Assembly: GCA_963812155.1 (NCBI GenBank)
Contig: CAWETW010000001.1
Location: 320,001-384,000, forward strand
Direction of reading: 5' to 3'
DNA: 64,000 bases
DNA from: Vulcanimicrobiota bacterium
Lineage (GTDB): Bacteria > Vulcanimicrobiota > Vulcanimicrobiia > Vulcanimicrobiales > Vulcanimicrobiaceae
Shown here piece by piece: positions 3,859-9,685 of this stretch. The notes below the pieces were generated by a model. It saw only the letters and a program-made list of their open reading frames with translations. It searched no databases and was not told the origin of the DNA. The translations under genes and the position numbers were made by a program. Positions within the stretch are counted from its first letter, which is position 1. Each line of letters starts with the position of its first letter.

Positions 3859-3957
3859 TCAATGATGCTTGGCCCAGAGAAAAGAAACCAGGACTACCAG
3901 CAGGACGGTGCCGCAGATCATTCCCGTAGCGATGACTATGGCGGTCGGCAAGCTCAT
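3859..3957 (-). CDS. 32-aa single-pass membrane peptide
   Basis: ATG..TGA ORF MSLPTAIVIATGMICGTVLLVVLVSFLWAKHH with AGAGGG just upstream; one hydrophobic helix. Below the ORF-track length cutoff. Confidence 0.5.
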   Translation of the reverse strand: MSLPTAIVIATGMICGTVLLVVLVSFLWAKHH

Positions 3958-4100
3958 TAAAGACCCTCTTTCAGGCTACCCCCTGCTTACGGATTGCGAG
4001 CCTTTCGGGTTTCGGTGCGCGCTGACCACTTCCGCAGGGCCAGACGGAGCTCGGGTTTGGACGGTTGCTTGCATGGGCTGGCGGAAAGTGTGCATTGACT

Positions 4101-4267
4101 CCTGTCACGGACGACGCGGTGTGACAACCGAGATGGCGCTGCGGCTCGCACATGCCTTCCAGACCTCCGCGCAGTATTGGCTCAACCTGCAGATCGCCGT
4201 CGACCTCTACGACGCCCAGAAATCCGACGTTTTTGCGGAGATCGAACGCCGGCCGGTGCTCGTCTAG
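4101..4267 (+). pseudogene. higA: C-terminal remnant of a HigA-family antitoxin (XRE HTH)
   Basis: GRRGVTTEMALRLAHAFQTSAQYWLNLQIAVDLY matches the HigA C-terminal half; the N-terminal HPGEIL segment and a higB partner are absent. Confidence 0.75.
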
Positions 4268-4395: not shown

Positions 4396-4863
4396 TCATC
4401 CGCGACGGCCGCCGCTGACAGGAATCGCCTGCAGCTTACACGCGGCCAGACGATCGCGCAGGACGAGCGCCGCGCTTGCGACCGATTCTCGATCGTGCCG
4501 ATTGAGTTCGAGCAGAATGCACGCGAAGCGCGCGCGGGTCGGGTCGTTTACGGTGCAGTCCCAGCCGTGAAACTCGACCGCGCTCGGTGTGCGCGAGCAT
4601 CCAGTTCATCGCGGGCCGGGAGAACTCGGCGTAGGTGCGCATGCCGGCGTGCGTGAGCACATCGATCGCTCGCAGGTTGCCGGGCGTTTGGCATGCAGCG
4701 CGCCGTGATAGACGGCGTAGTTGTCGAGGCCGCGGGGGTAGGCGGCGTAGACCATCGGCGTGCCGCCGAAATGCCGCAGCATCAGCGGCTGCGCGATGCG
4801 GTAGTACTCGAGATTGCGCTCGCAATCGGCGTGCGATATGTGATGGATGGGGGGGGTGAGCAT
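4396..4863 (-). pseudogene. Frameshifted, truncated LigD polymerase/primase-like domain
   Basis: Three frames join as LEYYRIAQPLMLRHFGGTPMVYAAYPRG / YAEFSRPAMNWML / AVEFHGWDCTVNDPTRARF...VASAALVLRDRLAACKLQAIPVSGG*, echoing LigD-Pol motifs; two frameshifts and an early stop. Confidence 0.6.
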
Positions 4864-5192
4864 CGTTATGTTCCTGCAAGGCTCGTGCACTCCGTGTATT
4901 CGGAGCCCACGAAACGCGGCATCGCGCATGCAAACCCTATTTCACGCTCGCCTATGCGTGCGATGCCGCAATCGGTACTACGGTACGGCGCCACGTGCAC
5001 AGAAAATCCGGTCCCTTACCCCATTAAAGGCTTACGTCGCCGCTAACGGCCTTACGCTTTTCTCACGCTAGCCGCTCCCGCAGCCGCGCCGCCGGCGGCC
5101 GTGGGAGTTCGGCGATAGGTGTAGCCGGGAGCCCGTTCGATGCTGCCGAAACCCTCCGCGTACCTGAAACGTCAGGGTGAAAGGTAGGGTGT

Positions 5193-6110
5193 ATGCCCAC
5201 TCTTACGATCAATTACGTTTATTTCGGCGCGTCCGGGGCGCACACGCGCCAGCCGCGCGTCGTCAGCTCTTACGGCGGATTCACGCCCATCCCGGGTCTT
5301 AATCCCGGCGGCACCGCGACGCTGATGGCGGGAACGCCATATGAGCCCGGTTATCCGCCCGACCTCGACTCACAACACCTCGCTTACGCGTTCACGAACG
5401 TCTCCGGCTGTTTGGAGGGTCCGCGCACGTCGTACGTCGCGACCATGCTTCCTCCGGTCGGCACAGTTGGTAGCAATCCGATCGTCGTCAACTACGTCTA
5501 CGTTCCCACCGGCCATAACGGAAACGGCGGAACCGGCGCCGTCATCGATGCGTTCGACGCGAGCATCAACTCGCTGATCGATAACAACTTCGTAACGTGC
5601 ACTCCGGATCCGGGCGGCACCATCACGACCGAAGCGAACGTCGACGGTTGGGTGGATACGTCAAGCTCAGGACGCACCATCACTGCAGACCATCCGAATA
5701 TCGGAGGCTATGGAACGTGGTCGACCCTCCCGCTCTTCGATCGCTGGGTCGATCTCACCGATCCCGCGCCGCCATCGTCGCTGATTAGCGGTGCCAATCT
5801 TACGCCCGGACAAGGCGCCACCGTCTACGCACTCGCGTTCTATCACGATCCGATAAAAACCAAAGAGCACAAGGAGTACTTAGAAAAGAATCCGGCCGAG
5901 TACCTGAAGTCGATAGCCGAATACTTCAAGGGGCCGAAGGAATCGGTCGAAAATCCCGGATTCGGCAACATCGGCGATCCCGCGGAGGTGATCGGCGAGT
6001 TACGGACGCTCACCGTGCGGCTTGCCGGACTCGAGGCGCGCCTCGAGGCGTTCGGCTCGGCATTCATCAAAGCCGAAGACCGGCCGCAAACCCGGAAGCA
6101 GCAGCGGTAA
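5193..6110 (+). CDS. Hypothetical protein: beta-rich N-terminal region, K-x3-E repeats, coiled segment and FIKAEDRP tail; candidate ATP-grasp substrate
   Basis: 305-aa ORF with purine-rich RBS and no signal peptide; first gene of a tight three-gene unit with two ATP-grasp genes. Confidence 0.85.
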   Translation: MPTLTINYVYFGASGAHTRQPRVVSSYGGFTPIPGLNPGGTATLMAGTPYEPGYPPDLDSQHLAYAFTNVSGCLEGPRTSYVATMLPPVGTVGSNPIVVNYVYVPTGHNGNGGTGAVIDAFDASINSLIDNNFVTCTPDPGGTITTEANVDGWVDTSSSGRTITADHPNIGGYGTWSTLPLFDRWVDLTDPAPPSSLISGANLTPGQGATVYALAFYHDPIKTKEHKEYLEKNPAEYLKSIAEYFKGPKESVENPGFGNIGDPAEVIGELRTLTVRLAGLEARLEAFGSAFIKAEDRPQTRKQQR

Positions 6111-6128
6111 CAGTGAGCGCGAGGAGCG

Positions 6129-6833
6129 TTGTTCCTCGTCCTTAGCAACTTGGCCAACGAGGCGGCGCGAGAAATGGTGGAGACGTTTCCACCTGGCGCC
6201 GCCTCGCTGGTCACCGCTTCCGAACTCGATCGTTCGTTTAAAGCGTCCGTTCGGTTCGGCGATTTTTCGTCCGCGACGTTGACGATCGACGGCGTCGAGA
6301 CGTCGCCACGCCAGGTCGAAGGCGTCGTTTCGACGATTGCCTATTTCCTGCCGCAAGAGTTTTACTACGTCGAGCCCGCCGATCGCGAGTATGTGCGAAG
6401 CGAAACCACGGCCTTCTTCATCTACTTCCTCTCGCAGCTTGCGTGCCCGAAACTCAATCCGCCGACGGCCAAGACGCTTTGCGGCTTGGGCATGCATCGC
6501 ATCGAATGGATGCGGGGCGCGCGTAACGCCGGCGTTCCGTTGCAGCGGGTGCGGACTCACGACGGACAAACGACGTACGACGATGTGCCGGATGCGAGGC
6601 AACGCGTGCGCGCGACGTGCATCGGCGACGCGATCGTCGAAGACCGCGTCCCCGACGCGGTTCGAGCGCACCTGCTAGCGCTATCCGAGGCCTTTCGAAT
6701 GCCGTACCTGTGCGCCGATTTCATTGCACCCGGCGACGGCGACTACCGCCTGGCCGATCTGTGGTCGGTTCCCGACGTCCGCGTCCCGGCAAATCGCGCG
6801 GCAATCGTGCGCTTCATGCGGGGCCGGCCGTGA
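6129..6833 (+). CDS. Degenerate ATP-grasp-like protein
   Basis: DREYVRSETTAFFIYFLSQLACPKLNPP resembles the pre-ATP-grasp region of peptide maturases; C-terminal LSEAFRMPYLCADFIAPGDGDYRLADLWSVP parallels the next gene but lacks E-x-N. Confidence 0.7.
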   Translation: MFLVLSNLANEAAREMVETFPPGAASLVTASELDRSFKASVRFGDFSSATLTIDGVETSPRQVEGVVSTIAYFLPQEFYYVEPADREYVRSETTAFFIYFLSQLACPKLNPPTAKTLCGLGMHRIEWMRGARNAGVPLQRVRTHDGQTTYDDVPDARQRVRATCIGDAIVEDRVPDAVRAHLLALSEAFRMPYLCADFIAPGDGDYRLADLWSVPDVRVPANRAAIVRFMRGRP

Positions 6834-7783
6834 TTTTGCTTTGGGGCTCAATGACGGACGAGCCGATGGTGATGGCACGCGCCGCATTGTTGCAGGCGGG
6901 CTACGAGCCGGCCTTTCTAGATCACGAAAAGGTCTTTACCTCGGTGCTTGATTGTGAAATCGACGACGCAGGCAGCCGCTGCACGGTGACCGCCGGCGAG
7001 GCGGTGGTCGAGATGGCGGCGGTCTCGGTTGCCTATGTGCGCGGCGCGAACTTCTACGACTACGACGAGATGCGCGACCTGCCACGCGATGCGCCTCTCG
7101 CGCAACGGGCAGCCGCGTTCGAAATGCAGTTGATGGCATGGCTCGACGCCTCGGATGCGGTCGTCATCAATAAATCGGGCCCCGCGGCGGCGAACAATTC
7201 CAAGCCCTATCAGCTGACGGCGGTCCGCAATGCCGGGTTTCACGTTCCAGAGACCTTCCTTACCAACGACCCCGCCGCCGCGCGCGCGTTCGTGTCGGCA
7301 CGTCGCGACGTCATCTACAAGTCCATCAGCGGAACCCGGAGCATCGTGCGCCCGCTCGACGAACGACAACGCGCCTTTCTCGACGACGTAAAGTGGTGTC
7401 CGACGTGTTTTCAGGAGCGACTTACCGGAATGAACTATCGCGTCCACGTGATCGGCGATCGCGTTCTCGCGCTTCGCATCGAATCCGACCAACTCGATTA
7501 TCGCTATGGCAACACCCGAATGGCGGAGACCGAGTTGCCCGACGACATCGCGCAGCGCTGCCGAGACATGACCGGCGCGATGGGACTGCATTTCTCCGGT
7601 ATCGACCTCATGCAGACCCGCGACGGCGAGTGGTTCTGCTTCGAAGTGAATCCGTCACCGGCGTTTTCCTACTTCGAGGCGGCCTCCGGACAGCCGATCG
7701 CCGCGGCACTGGCCCGGTTCCTGCTGGACCAACTCGCGCGCGCTGAAGATGCGGCGGCAAAGCGCGCGCTCCAGACCCACTAA
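6830..7783 (+). CDS. RimK/MvdC-MvdD-like ATP-grasp ligase
   Basis: GTG start in a GTGA overlap with the upstream stop; motifs SKPYQL, VPETFLTNDP, VIYKS, FQE, RVHVIG, DYRY, GIDL, FEVNPSP. Confidence 0.92.
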   Translation: MILLWGSMTDEPMVMARAALLQAGYEPAFLDHEKVFTSVLDCEIDDAGSRCTVTAGEAVVEMAAVSVAYVRGANFYDYDEMRDLPRDAPLAQRAAAFEMQLMAWLDASDAVVINKSGPAAANNSKPYQLTAVRNAGFHVPETFLTNDPAAARAFVSARRDVIYKSISGTRSIVRPLDERQRAFLDDVKWCPTCFQERLTGMNYRVHVIGDRVLALRIESDQLDYRYGNTRMAETELPDDIAQRCRDMTGAMGLHFSGIDLMQTRDGEWFCFEVNPSPAFSYFEAASGQPIAAALARFLLDQLARAEDAAAKRALQTH

Positions 7784-8436: not shown

Positions 8437-9525
8437 ATGGGCAGAATGGTCAAAATTGCCGCATTCGCAACGGTTTCGGCCCTTGCGGCGTGTTCCAGCC
8501 CCGTAAGCCAACCTTCGGTTCCCGGCAGCCTGCAAGCAAAGAACGCAAAGGTTGCCGCGCCGTCAACGACCGGCCACTTGTTCGTTCGACGATCCGTGTC
8601 GCGCAACGCGCCGGCGGGATACGGTCCGGCCGATCTTCAAGCCGCCTACAATCTTCCGTCGAGCAGTAAAGGCAGCGGACAAGTCGTTGCGGTCGTCGAC
8701 GCCTACGACAACCCGAACGTTGCATCGGATCTGGCGACTTATCGCTCGACCTACGGTTTACCGTCCGCGAACTTCACGAAATATAACCAGGCGGGGCAGA
8801 CGAAGAACTATCCGCAGGCCGACTCGGCTTGGGGCACGGACATCGACCTGGCCGTCGAAATGATTTCCGCCTCATGTCCGAACTGCACGATCGATCTCGT
8901 CGAAGCGAACTCGAGCAGCGTTTCGGATCTCGAACAGGCTGAATCGGAAGCCGTCGCGCTCGGCGCGCACGTCGTCACCAATGGATTCGCCGGTACCGGC
9001 TTCGATCAATCGTATTTCGATGCCAACGGTGTGACCTATCTTGCGGCTTCGGGCGACGGCGGATTCGGGTCCGTTCCCGAACCGGCCGCATTCGGCAGCG
9101 TCGTGGCGGTCGGAGGCACGACGCTCACGCGCGGCGGCGAAAGCCGCGGATGGAAAGAAACCGTTTGGCCAGACGCAGGCAACGGTTGCACAACGTTCCC
9201 CAAGCCGCCGTGGCAGCATGACAAGACGTGTGCGTATCGCTTAGCCAACGATGTCTCGGCCGTCGCGGCTCCGACGCCGGGTGTTGCCGAGTACGACAGC
9301 TACGGTGCCGGCAGATGGTTCCTCGTGGGTGGCACCAGCGTAGCGACGCCGCTTCTCGCCGGTGTCTTCGGCTTAGCCGGCAATGCGAATAAACAAAACG
9401 GTGGCAGGACGTTTTGGCAATCGTCCCACCACCAATATTTGTATCGTTTGAAGAGCGGAGGGAAGTTCGTCCGCTATTCCGAGGCCGGTGGCTGGGGCAG
9501 CCCCGACGGCATCGGCGCGTTTTAG
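8437..9525 (+). CDS. S53/S8 subtilase-family lipoprotein
   Basis: Lipobox LAAC; GYGPADLQAAY, VAVVDAYDNP, ASGDGG, VGGTTL, DVSAVA, GGTSVATP, GWGSPDG. Confidence 0.9.
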   Translation: MGRMVKIAAFATVSALAACSSPVSQPSVPGSLQAKNAKVAAPSTTGHLFVRRSVSRNAPAGYGPADLQAAYNLPSSSKGSGQVVAVVDAYDNPNVASDLATYRSTYGLPSANFTKYNQAGQTKNYPQADSAWGTDIDLAVEMISASCPNCTIDLVEANSSSVSDLEQAESEAVALGAHVVTNGFAGTGFDQSYFDANGVTYLAASGDGGFGSVPEPAAFGSVVAVGGTTLTRGGESRGWKETVWPDAGNGCTTFPKPPWQHDKTCAYRLANDVSAVAAPTPGVAEYDSYGAGRWFLVGGTSVATPLLAGVFGLAGNANKQNGGRTFWQSSHHQYLYRLKSGGKFVRYSEAGGWGSPDGIGAF

Positions 9526-9534
9526 CGCACTGCG

Positions 9535-9685
9535 CGTCCTTCGACTGCGCGCCTGCGGGCGCTCCGCTCAGGATGACACCAAGTGGCTTCGCTTAGGATG
9601 ACAGGGGAAGTCCTTCGCTCAGGACGACACAGGGGGCGCGCGCTCCTCTTAGTGTGACACAGAGGAGCGCTGCGCTCGGGTGATG
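9535..9685. repeat. REP-like 46-bp element followed by degenerate tandem half-copies and a hairpin
   Basis: 9535-9580 is 45/46 identical to 11715-11760; followed by ttcgcttaggatgaca, cttcgctcaggacgacac and the hairpin gcgctcctct/agaggagcgc (9640-9670); lies between convergent genes. Confidence 0.85.

What the first reader, a model, noticed from the sequence alone, without database searches (positions are those of the whole stretch)
5193..7783. Candidate new ATP-grasp protein-crosslinking system: large K-x3-E-repeat substrate plus two ATP-grasp genes
Seen: three tightly packed co-directional genes (18-bp gap, then a GTGA overlap). Gene 1 is 305 aa with no signal peptide. It has a beta-rich body, then four tandem units KEHKEYLE / KNPAEYL / KSIAEYF / KGPKESV (about 5862-5950) that each place Lys and Glu at i,i+4, then a coiled segment LTVRLAGLEARLE and a terminal FIKAEDRP. 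Established: MvdC/MvdD-type graspetide synthetases form Lys-Glu/Asp omega-amides and Thr/Ser esters in repetitive cores, normally on small precursors with an N-terminal leader. Inference: here the substrate is a full-size protein with an internal repeat core and a C-terminal follower motif, so the ligase may staple or crosslink a folded protein instead of making a released peptide. No transporter or leader peptidase is coupled to the unit.
Basis: partly seen in the sequence, partly recalled or inferred. Interest (0 to 1): 0.88.

Follow-up and report, generated by a model that had tools for sequence, protein, structure and literature searches.

The report
Portable protein-stapling tail with ATP-grasp pair
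A three-gene cassette appears to use a peptide-ring-forming enzyme and its inactive twin to staple a lysine/glutamate-rich tail that is grafted onto unrelated full-size proteins, which would carry this chemistry from small peptides to whole proteins; the chemistry is inferred, not shown.

Summary
Six of the seven core lysines of gene 1 have Glu at +4 (1.4 expected). The cassette recurs in order in 15 of 18 GTDB loci from four phyla.
One correction: only gene 3 is a ligase, closest to PsnB. Gene 2 has the graspetide-synthetase fold but lacks the lid and most catalytic residues.
The tail (K/E core, GDP, coil, FIxxx[DE]RP) also ends kelch, tyrosinase, M6-peptidase, IPT/TIG and DUF6519 proteins beside the same pair. 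The same motif sits at the N-terminus of stand-alone precursors and of PqqD adaptors with no K/E core. It lies beside 35 of 39 informative ligase loci, so it is most likely the docking signal, used here as a natural follower.
The ligase family looks already catalogued but uncharacterised: RODEO group 32 and probably Makarova branch 8. K-x3-D lactams on a 22-kDa precursor are known (corallotide). No chemistry was tested. Verdict: new variant of a known kind.

The parts
5193..6110 (+). Gene 1: carrier/precursor, 305 aa; two beta domains plus a C-terminal tail
   Evidence: ORF; no Pfam/NCBIfam hit; 82 homologs at E<=1e-3, 177 cluster representatives
5193..5522 (+). Domain 1 (res 1-110): small beta domain resembling SHIRT/MucBP/InlB-B-repeat adhesin modules
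   Evidence: AF2 model mean pLDDT 73.9; best VIA Z 6.4, rmsd 2.2-4.2 over 68-78 residues, below the level that shows kinship; no Foldseek match at E<=1e-3
5526..5852 (+). Domain 2 (res 112-220): beta sandwich resembling CnaB/transthyretin-type pilin domains
   Evidence: VIA Z up to 6.2, rmsd 3.0-3.7 over 82-95 residues; weak, common arrangement
5856..5951 (+). K/E core (res 222-253): predicted modification sites; K224, K227, K232, K239, K246, K249 each have Glu at +4
   Evidence: pLDDT 38-58 in this stretch
5973..6062 (+). GDP hinge and amphipathic helix (res 261-290), probable coiled coil
   Evidence: D262/P263/L273/E281 conserved in >=90% of 44 homologs; helix 263-290 in the model; coiled-coil state inferred
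6063..6086 (+). FIKAEDRP: predicted ligase-docking (follower) motif
   Evidence: F291, R297, P298 invariant in 44 homologs; same motif N-terminal on stand-alone precursors and on PqqD proteins
6129..6833 (+). Gene 2: truncated, catalytically dead ATP-grasp paralog (partner protein)
   Evidence: Model pLDDT 89.9; Foldseek top hit MdnC 5ig9 E 1e-10, TM 0.72-0.77; 15 residues across the 60-residue lid region, and only 1 of 10 ligase positions (the D259 column) keeps the same residue
6830..7783 (+). Gene 3: graspetide-type ATP-grasp ligase with intact active site
   Evidence: TIGR04187 148.7 bits (cut-off 350), RimK family 49.8; closest PDB sequence PsnB 7drm E 1e-36, RimK 1e-5; R71, K125, K164, Q195, R204, D223, R225, D259, E272, N274 present

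Best explanation
Gene 3 is a graspetide-type synthetase that works together with the dead paralog of gene 2, probably as a heterodimer (inferred). It binds FIKAEDRP at the C-terminus of the gene 1 protein; this motif plays the part that an N-terminal leader plays in other graspetides (inferred from comparative genomics). It phosphorylates Glu side chains in the core with ATP and joins them to Lys four residues upstream, giving several Lys(i)-Glu(i+4) lactams (chemistry by analogy to PsnB, MdnB and corallotide; ring size inferred from spacing). The stapled tail stays on the folded two-domain body. The tail is a portable module that has been grafted onto many unrelated proteins. Shown here: anatomy, linkage, catalytic residues, portability, motif mobility. 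Not shown: binding, dehydration, connectivity, retention of the tail, biological role.
For: Same gene order in 15 of 18 GTDB loci, from Eremiobacterota, Acidobacteriota, Verrucomicrobiota and Bacteroidota. The exceptions: L011 ends at a contig end; L018 is a deletion remnant; L017 has the body without the tail, and its genome has no gene 3 match. The tail occurs on a 560-aa kelch protein directly upstream of a distant gene 2 homolog. In 12 of 80 metagenome ligase loci a C-terminal motif ends the gene next to the partner; carriers include kelch (2), tyrosinase, M6 peptidase, DUF6519 and IPT/TIG. The motif is within 1.5 kb of the ligase in 57 of 80 loci and in 35 of 39 with enough flank, against 53 matches in all ORFs of the 2.96-Mb own genome. 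The motif occurs without a K/E core at the N-terminus of PqqD proteins (7 loci by eye, 3 of 3 tested confirmed by Pfam). All 9 ligases aligned keep all 10 catalytic positions (MvdC has K164 as R), and none of 20 partners keeps more than 3. K->D/E +4 is directional in this family and in 12 other carriers (68 vs 41; reverse 26 vs 41). Ligases with C-terminal-motif substrates group together (SH-aLRT 97, quick tree). Precedents: corallotide K-x3-D lactams on a ~22-kDa precursor (PMC13097080, sections 10-11 read); an engineered leader-to-follower swap works at half the rate (PMC13003496, abstract, introduction and conclusion read); partner-dependent ATP-grasps.
Against: No experiment and no expression data. 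Spacing does not fix ring size: +5 is enriched as well (97 vs 52), +1 dominates in other carriers, and sister precursors are enriched at +2, +4 and +5. Four of 39 informative loci lack the motif (L105, L106, L120, L125), and L040 has the pair with no evident substrate. Short stand-alone versions of the tail exist (L113, L131; group 32 rows), so a released peptide is a live option. The tail-less control rests on one genome, a MAG. The 80 loci were the best 80 of 584, ranked to a sister-type ligase, and include near-duplicates. The tree is a short search without bootstrap and has no RimK row.
Confidence: 0.45

Rival explanations
1. Same enzymes, same follower and same lactams, but the tail is later cut off by a host or carrier protease and released as an ordinary RiPP. 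The folded body is then an oversized carrier.
For: Stand-alone tails of 100-250 aa exist with the motif at either end. Several carriers are peptidases (M6 in L137, astacin in L050) and could self-process. The characterised graspetides are mostly released protease inhibitors (PMC8939145 background).
Against: No conserved peptidase or transporter flanks 15 cassettes. No conserved GG site precedes the core in 44 homologs. This carrier has no catalytic domain.
Confidence: 0.25
2. The coil bundles several tails, and the ligase joins Lys of one chain to Glu of another, giving covalent oligomers or a network that displays the carrier domains.
For: A predicted amphipathic helix follows every core. ThfB can cross-link assembled chains (PMC12291112, abstract only). 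Carrier domains resemble surface modules.
Against: Fixed, one-directional K->E spacing within the chain fits intrachain rings better. All natural precedents read here are intrachain.
Confidence: 0.12
3. The tail is an unmodified charged helical linker or targeting tag, and the ligase acts on something else.
For: K/E at i,i+4 is typical of salt-bridged helices (own knowledge). Some ligase loci lack a tail.
Against: Such helices usually favour E->K order (own knowledge), which is not enriched here. Motif and ligase are tightly linked. The own genome has a single tail match, next to the ligase.
Confidence: 0.07
4. RimK/LysX-like ligation: free glutamate or another amine or acid is added to the tail rather than rings being closed.
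For: Pfam RimK hit above cut-off (27.5 bits). Acidic residues are abundant in the core.
Against: Graspetide models and structures score far higher than RimK. The DYR loop and the Arg213 and Arg72 equivalents of PsnB are present. Gene 1 ends in basic residues, not in Glu-Glu as RimK substrates do (recalled).
Confidence: 0.06

Closest known systems
RODEO-predicted graspetide group 32 (Carter et al. 2026, PMC13097080; section 7 and suppl. file 2 parts 373-374 read)
   Same: 15 of 50 listed group 32 'precursors' (counted by eye) carry a C-terminal FIxxxxRP motif, many after K/E(D) repeats. Many rows list two ATP-grasp genes. Neighbouring proteases are of diverse families.
   Different: Uncharacterised. 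The main text treats the proteases as maturation or resistance genes and has no 'follower' or 'fused'. No group 32 row from this lineage or with this carrier was found in the part of the table held. The SI PDF with the group figures could not be read.
Makarova et al. 2022 ATP-grasp branch 8 (PMC8939145; sections 3, 5, 6, 7 and suppl. tables searched)
   Same: Ligase plus truncated inactive ATP-grasp plus peptidases of unrelated families; genera overlap with group 32 (Spirosoma, Cellulomonas, Nostoc, Streptomyces).
   Different: No precursor was predicted; the peptidases were proposed to supply peptides cut from other proteins. Six tail motifs searched in their supplements gave no precursor hit. 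Here the truncation is a lost lid with a degenerate C-domain kept, not a loss of the C-terminal domain.
RODEO group 39 / sister loci with an N-terminal motif
   Same: Same motif, K/E core, GDP and coil; active ligase plus dead partner.
   Different: Motif at the N-terminus of a stand-alone precursor or on a PqqD protein; the partner is full length (59-64 lid residues); separate ligase clades.
Corallotide (group 15; PMC13097080 sections 10-12)
   Same: Large precursor, repeated K-x3-acid lactams, partner-activated synthetase.
   Different: N-terminal helical recognition domain, Asp donors, oxygenase partner, restricted to Corallococcus; not grafted onto unrelated proteins.
Myxomiditide MyxF/MyxD (PMC12848669; abstract and discussion)
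   Same: Repeated Lys-Glu lactams; cooperating ATP-grasp paralogs.
   Different: KxxE (i,i+3), microviridin core, N-terminal leader; the dependent paralog is itself catalytic.
Plesiocin synthetase PsnB (bioRxiv 10.1101/2021.03.09.434688; passages)
   Same: Closest solved structure by sequence; same catalytic Arg and DFR-type loop; asymmetric dimer in which one subunit binds the core.
   Different: Thr/Ser-Glu esters in TTxxxxEE cores (core motif recalled), N-terminal leader, homodimer.

Membership tests
Graspetides (class) | ATP-grasp of the graspetide-synthetase lineage | tested here: met
   Best models TIGR04187/04185/04184, all below their cut-offs, versus RimK 49.8 bits; PsnB E 1e-36 versus RimK 1e-5
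Graspetides (class) | Intact catalytic residues including the carboxylate-binding Arg and D(F/Y)R loop | tested here: met
   Gene 3 keeps all 10 positions checked
Graspetides (class) | Adjacent gene with a repeated donor/acceptor core | tested here: met
Graspetides (class) | N-terminal leader (Phhx motif, GG site) before the core | tested here: not met
   A 220-aa folded body precedes the core and the conserved motif is C-terminal; sister precursors carry it N-terminally as PF[VI]
Graspetides (class) | Side-chain macrolactam/lactone in the product | not testable with these tools
   Needs mass spectrometry
Graspetides (class) | Release and export of the core | tested here: inconclusive
   No conserved peptidase or transporter near 15 cassettes; one could act in trans
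RODEO group 32 | Synthetase clusters with group 32 at alignment score 70 | not testable with these tools
   The table gives accessions, not synthetase sequences
RODEO group 32 | K/E repeats followed by C-terminal FIxxxxRP | tested here: met
   15 of 50 rows by eye; gene 1 tail
RODEO group 32 | Neighbouring protease | tested here: not met
   None conserved in this subfamily. A subtilase gene lies at window 8437-9525 but is not conserved beside the cassette.
Makarova branch 8 | Truncated inactive ATP-grasp beside the ligase | tested here: met
Makarova branch 8 | Ligase falls in branch 8 of their tree | not testable with these tools
   The fasta and tree supplements cannot be read
RimK/LysX ligases | Score at or near the family cut-off, closest structure a RimK | tested here: not met
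   49.8 against cut-off 143.4

The most novel reading that the evidence does not exclude
A portable C-terminal tag (K/E core, coil, FIxxx[DE]RP) turns unrelated full-size proteins into substrates of an enzyme-pseudoenzyme ATP-grasp pair. The pair installs multiple Lys-Glu isopeptide staples or interchain links that stay on the working protein. This would be a general protein modification system derived from RiPP machinery, with a docking motif that nature has moved between leader, follower and RRE-adaptor positions.
Probability: 0.4. Interest if true: 0.85.

Novelty: new variant of a known kind. Interest (0 to 1): 0.7.

Why it matters
It offers a testable answer to a stated gap. Makarova et al. 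found no precursors for the peptidase-linked ATP-grasp branches, and Carter et al. read the neighbouring proteases as maturation or resistance genes. The data here suggest that the large neighbours are themselves the precursors, through their tails. C-terminal recognition in graspetides was reported in 2026 as an engineering result (PMC13003496); my searches listed no paper describing a natural case. If confirmed, this gives a natural follower-directed graspetide synthetase, a dead-paralog partner, and a short genetically encoded tag for enzymatic Lys-Glu stapling of proteins.

Tried and rejected
Pfam and NCBIfam gave nothing for genes 1 and 2. Profile comparison of gene 2 with gene 3 gave only probability 2%; their kinship rests on structure.
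The ESM Atlas gave only a 0.76 lead for gene 1. Foldseek found no match for gene 1 at E<=1e-3.
No gene 2 relative was found in viral contigs (0 of 91 candidates) or plasmids. The kelch-locus partner and tail also had no plasmid match.
The narrow gene 2 profile found 5 of 151 genomes in the own phylum, one of them a weak match (E 1.4e-4) whose locus shows ABC-transporter and kinase genes rather than the cassette, and 1 of 301 in Acidobacteriota. The ligase profile found 1 of 301 in Bacteroidota and 6 of 201 in the own family. The system is patchy and rare in those searched.
The tail search for longer proteins was crowded (only 7,998 candidates scored) and added only the kelch family.
The idea that carriers purge Lys to avoid off-target links was dropped: bodies with the tail have less Lys (0.51 vs 1.42%) but also less Arg (0.79 vs 1.80%), and kin are not independent.
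No promoter-like site was found and the one terminator-like site is below chance. GC is like the flanks. No RNA holder was listed.
Earlier scan findings: none returned. Iyer et al. 2009 is not held.
Full report
1. Observation. The three ORFs, the 18-bp gap and the GTGA overlap are as described. The window is G000:C1:320001-384000. The nearest named record is a Candidatus Eremiobacterota MAG with 97% identity in gene 1 (L001). Gene 1 has nine Lys, none before residue 222. Six of the seven in residues 222-253 have Glu at +4, against 1.4 expected; 0 of 20,000 shuffles reach six, with the segment chosen after inspection. Across 82 motif-bearing homolog cores K->D/E is enriched at +1 and +4 (374 vs 140; 366 vs 133). 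After dereplication to 32 and with KE/KD dipeptides kept intact, +4 is still 128 vs 53, +5 is 97 vs 52, and the reverse order at +4 is flat (57 vs 53). The units are not a fixed repeat: core length is 33-106 aa.

2. Gene 1. No Pfam or NCBIfam family. The AF2 model (mean pLDDT 73.9) shows two small beta domains, a low-confidence core and a long helix. The domains resemble adhesin repeat and pilin modules only at Z of about 6, which does not show kinship. In 44 aligned homologs the tail ends in G.AFIK..DRP with F, R and P invariant. The body is a wider family: of 227 homolog ids examined (a few repeated between the two searches, many fragments), 92 carry the motif; many others have different C-termini. 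Body and tail are thus separable modules.

3. Genes 2 and 3. Gene 3 scores best with graspetide maturase models, below their cut-offs (TIGR04187 148.7 of 350), and far lower with RimK. Its closest solved structure by sequence is PsnB (E 1e-36; RimK 1e-5). It keeps the equivalents of PsnB Arg72, Lys172, Arg213 and the DFR loop (passages of bioRxiv 2021.03.09.434688) and the D/E/N metal ligands (positions from own knowledge of ATP-grasp enzymes). Gene 2 has no sequence family, but its model (pLDDT 89.9) matches MdnC at E 1e-10, TM 0.72-0.77. It has 15 residues across the 60-residue lid and lacks most catalytic positions. None of 20 partners aligned keeps more than 3 of 10 such positions, while 9 ligases keep all 10 (MvdC with one K-to-R change). 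The cassette therefore holds one ligase and one pseudoenzyme.

4. Linkage. Of 18 GTDB loci with a gene 1 relative, 15 have all three genes in order, from four phyla. L011 is cut by a contig end. L018 is a remnant joining the start of gene 1 to the end of gene 3. L017 has the body without the tail, and its genome shows no gene 3 match (one MAG only). No other gene is conserved around the 15 cassettes across phyla. The cassette is rare in the samples searched.

5. Portability. A genome of the same genus has a 560-aa kelch protein with the same kind of tail directly before a distant gene 2 homolog. A metagenome scan with a broader ligase alignment confirmed 584 of 599 candidates and returned the best 80, ranked to a sister-type ligase and including near-duplicates. 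The motif lies within 1.5 kb of the ligase in 57 of 80, and in 35 of 39 with enough flank; the own genome has 53 matches in 2.96 Mb. A dead partner was detected in 63 of 80; the 17 misses all have under 750 bases upstream. Three layouts appear. (A) Stand-alone precursors of about 100-250 aa with the motif at the N-terminus, then core, GDP and coil. (B) Twelve loci with the motif C-terminal: on kelch (2), tyrosinase, M6 peptidase, DUF6519 and IPT/TIG proteins, and six without a Pfam family, some of them short. (C) Seven loci where the motif starts a PqqD protein with no K/E core (3 of 3 tested confirmed). In a quick tree of 80 ligases (SH-aLRT only, no RimK row) the B ligases, with the window's, form a group at 97, most A ligases at 99 and C at 98. 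Counter-examples: four informative loci without the motif, L040 with the pair but no evident substrate, and a lone ligase fragment in G127.

6. Mechanism. A motif that appears before the core, after the core, or on an adaptor without a core is best read as the ligase-docking signal (inference). In layout A it reads PF[VI], like the Phhx leader signature that binds the middle domain of microviridin ligases (PMC8939145 section 5). Gene 2 lacks that domain, so the motif should bind gene 3 (inference; no complex model was available). PsnB works as an asymmetric dimer with one loaded subunit, so a dead paralog as second subunit is plausible. Partner dependence is known for rosaritide (abstract), corallotide and myxomiditide. 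The core offers Lys and Glu with little Thr/Ser pattern, so lactams are expected, most likely i to i+4. Whether the tail is kept, released or used for interchain links is open. I put these at 0.45, 0.25 and 0.12, with 0.07 for an unmodified tail and 0.06 for RimK-like ligation.

7. What is known. Makarova et al. (PMC8939145, sections 3, 5, 6, 7 read; supplements searched) describe branch 8: 48 loci with a truncated inactive ATP-grasp and unrelated peptidases, and no precursor predicted. Six tail motifs gave no precursor hit in their supplements. Carter et al. (PMC13097080, sections 7, 10, 11, 12 read; table parts 373, 374, 378) list such tails among RODEO candidates: 15 of 50 group 32 rows by eye have the C-terminal motif, and group 39 has the N-terminal form. 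Their main text has no 'follower' or 'fused', and no group 32 row for this lineage was found in the part of the table held. Their SI PDF and Iyer et al. 2009 could not be read; either may already note the tail, and most branch 8 rows are flagged as close to Iyer's set. Membership in group 32 or branch 8 is likely but was not tested by sequence. K-x3-D lactams on a 22-kDa precursor are established for corallotide. Leader-to-follower conversion (PMC13003496; abstract, introduction, conclusion) and protein cyclisation (PMC12291112; abstract) are engineering results. Seven library searches (listings only, apart from the papers named) showed no description of a natural follower-directed, protein-fused graspetide.

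8. Verdict. It works like a lactam-forming graspetide system. It fails the N-terminal-leader feature, and product chemistry is untested. The enzyme family and the ring chemistry have precedent. The portable tail on unrelated folded proteins, the movable docking motif and the lid-less partner are the new part. New variant of a known kind; interest 0.70. The most novel reading, a general protein-stapling tag, has probability 0.4 and interest 0.85.

Noticed in passing
L109:927-1403, L128:5406-5900, L142:1496-1954 and four similar loci: PqqD/RRE proteins carry the FIxxxLRP motif at their N-terminus, next to the ligase pair. Group 39 rows list ~40-aa precursors with a lasso-type YxxPxL leader (label recalled) and KxxE/D cores. 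This suggests an adaptor that binds a small precursor and docks it on the ligase.
   Followed up: partly
L050:3-1133 (G443): Astacin peptidase with a K/E core and coil but no FIxxxxRP motif, directly upstream of an ATP-grasp that falls outside the clade and has no dead partner upstream. Possibly a parallel system such as Makarova branch 7.
   Followed up: partly
L058:8812-9123 and 9333-9662 (G414): Two tandem ~105-aa precursors with (KPE[HF]Y)-type cores after a divergent partner-ligase pair.
   Followed up: no
L112:773-1063: Small OB-fold-like gene after the ligase; similar proteins recur among group 32 rows. It is absent from the window cassette.
   Followed up: no
L018/L042 (G155) and L155:7002-7505 (G127): Cassette remnants: the first 42 codons of gene 1 run into the 3' end of gene 3, and elsewhere a lone 3' ligase fragment.
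   Followed up: partly
L002:5940-7589 and L004:5948-6653: Gene 2 changes frame near its 3' end; in L002 one open frame then covers genes 2 and 3. Assembly error is not excluded.
   Followed up: no
L007, L008, L010: In three Opitutaceae the cassette sits among genes that look like arginine biosynthesis genes (read by eye from translations).
   Followed up: no
P0161-P0299 (tail-less homologs of gene 1): The two-domain body carries several other C-terminal modules, including a helical two-Cys segment and a Gly/Pro-rich segment followed by a long helix; some have signal-peptide-like N-termini. The family is unannotated.
   Followed up: no
window 3869-4267 (+) and 4606-4929 (-): HigA-type antitoxin match and a weak LigD primase-polymerase fragment (E 0.019) just upstream of the cassette, beside the rpoB region (gene named by eye).
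   Followed up: no
window 8437-9525 (+): Subtilase-family peptidase with a lipoprotein-like N-terminus two genes downstream; not conserved beside other cassettes.
   Followed up: partly
L061:2306-2911 (G629): Two Gly/Ser-rich 86-aa ORFs between an ATP-grasp and a divergent ATP-grasp paralog; a different, unexamined graspetide-like locus.
   Followed up: no
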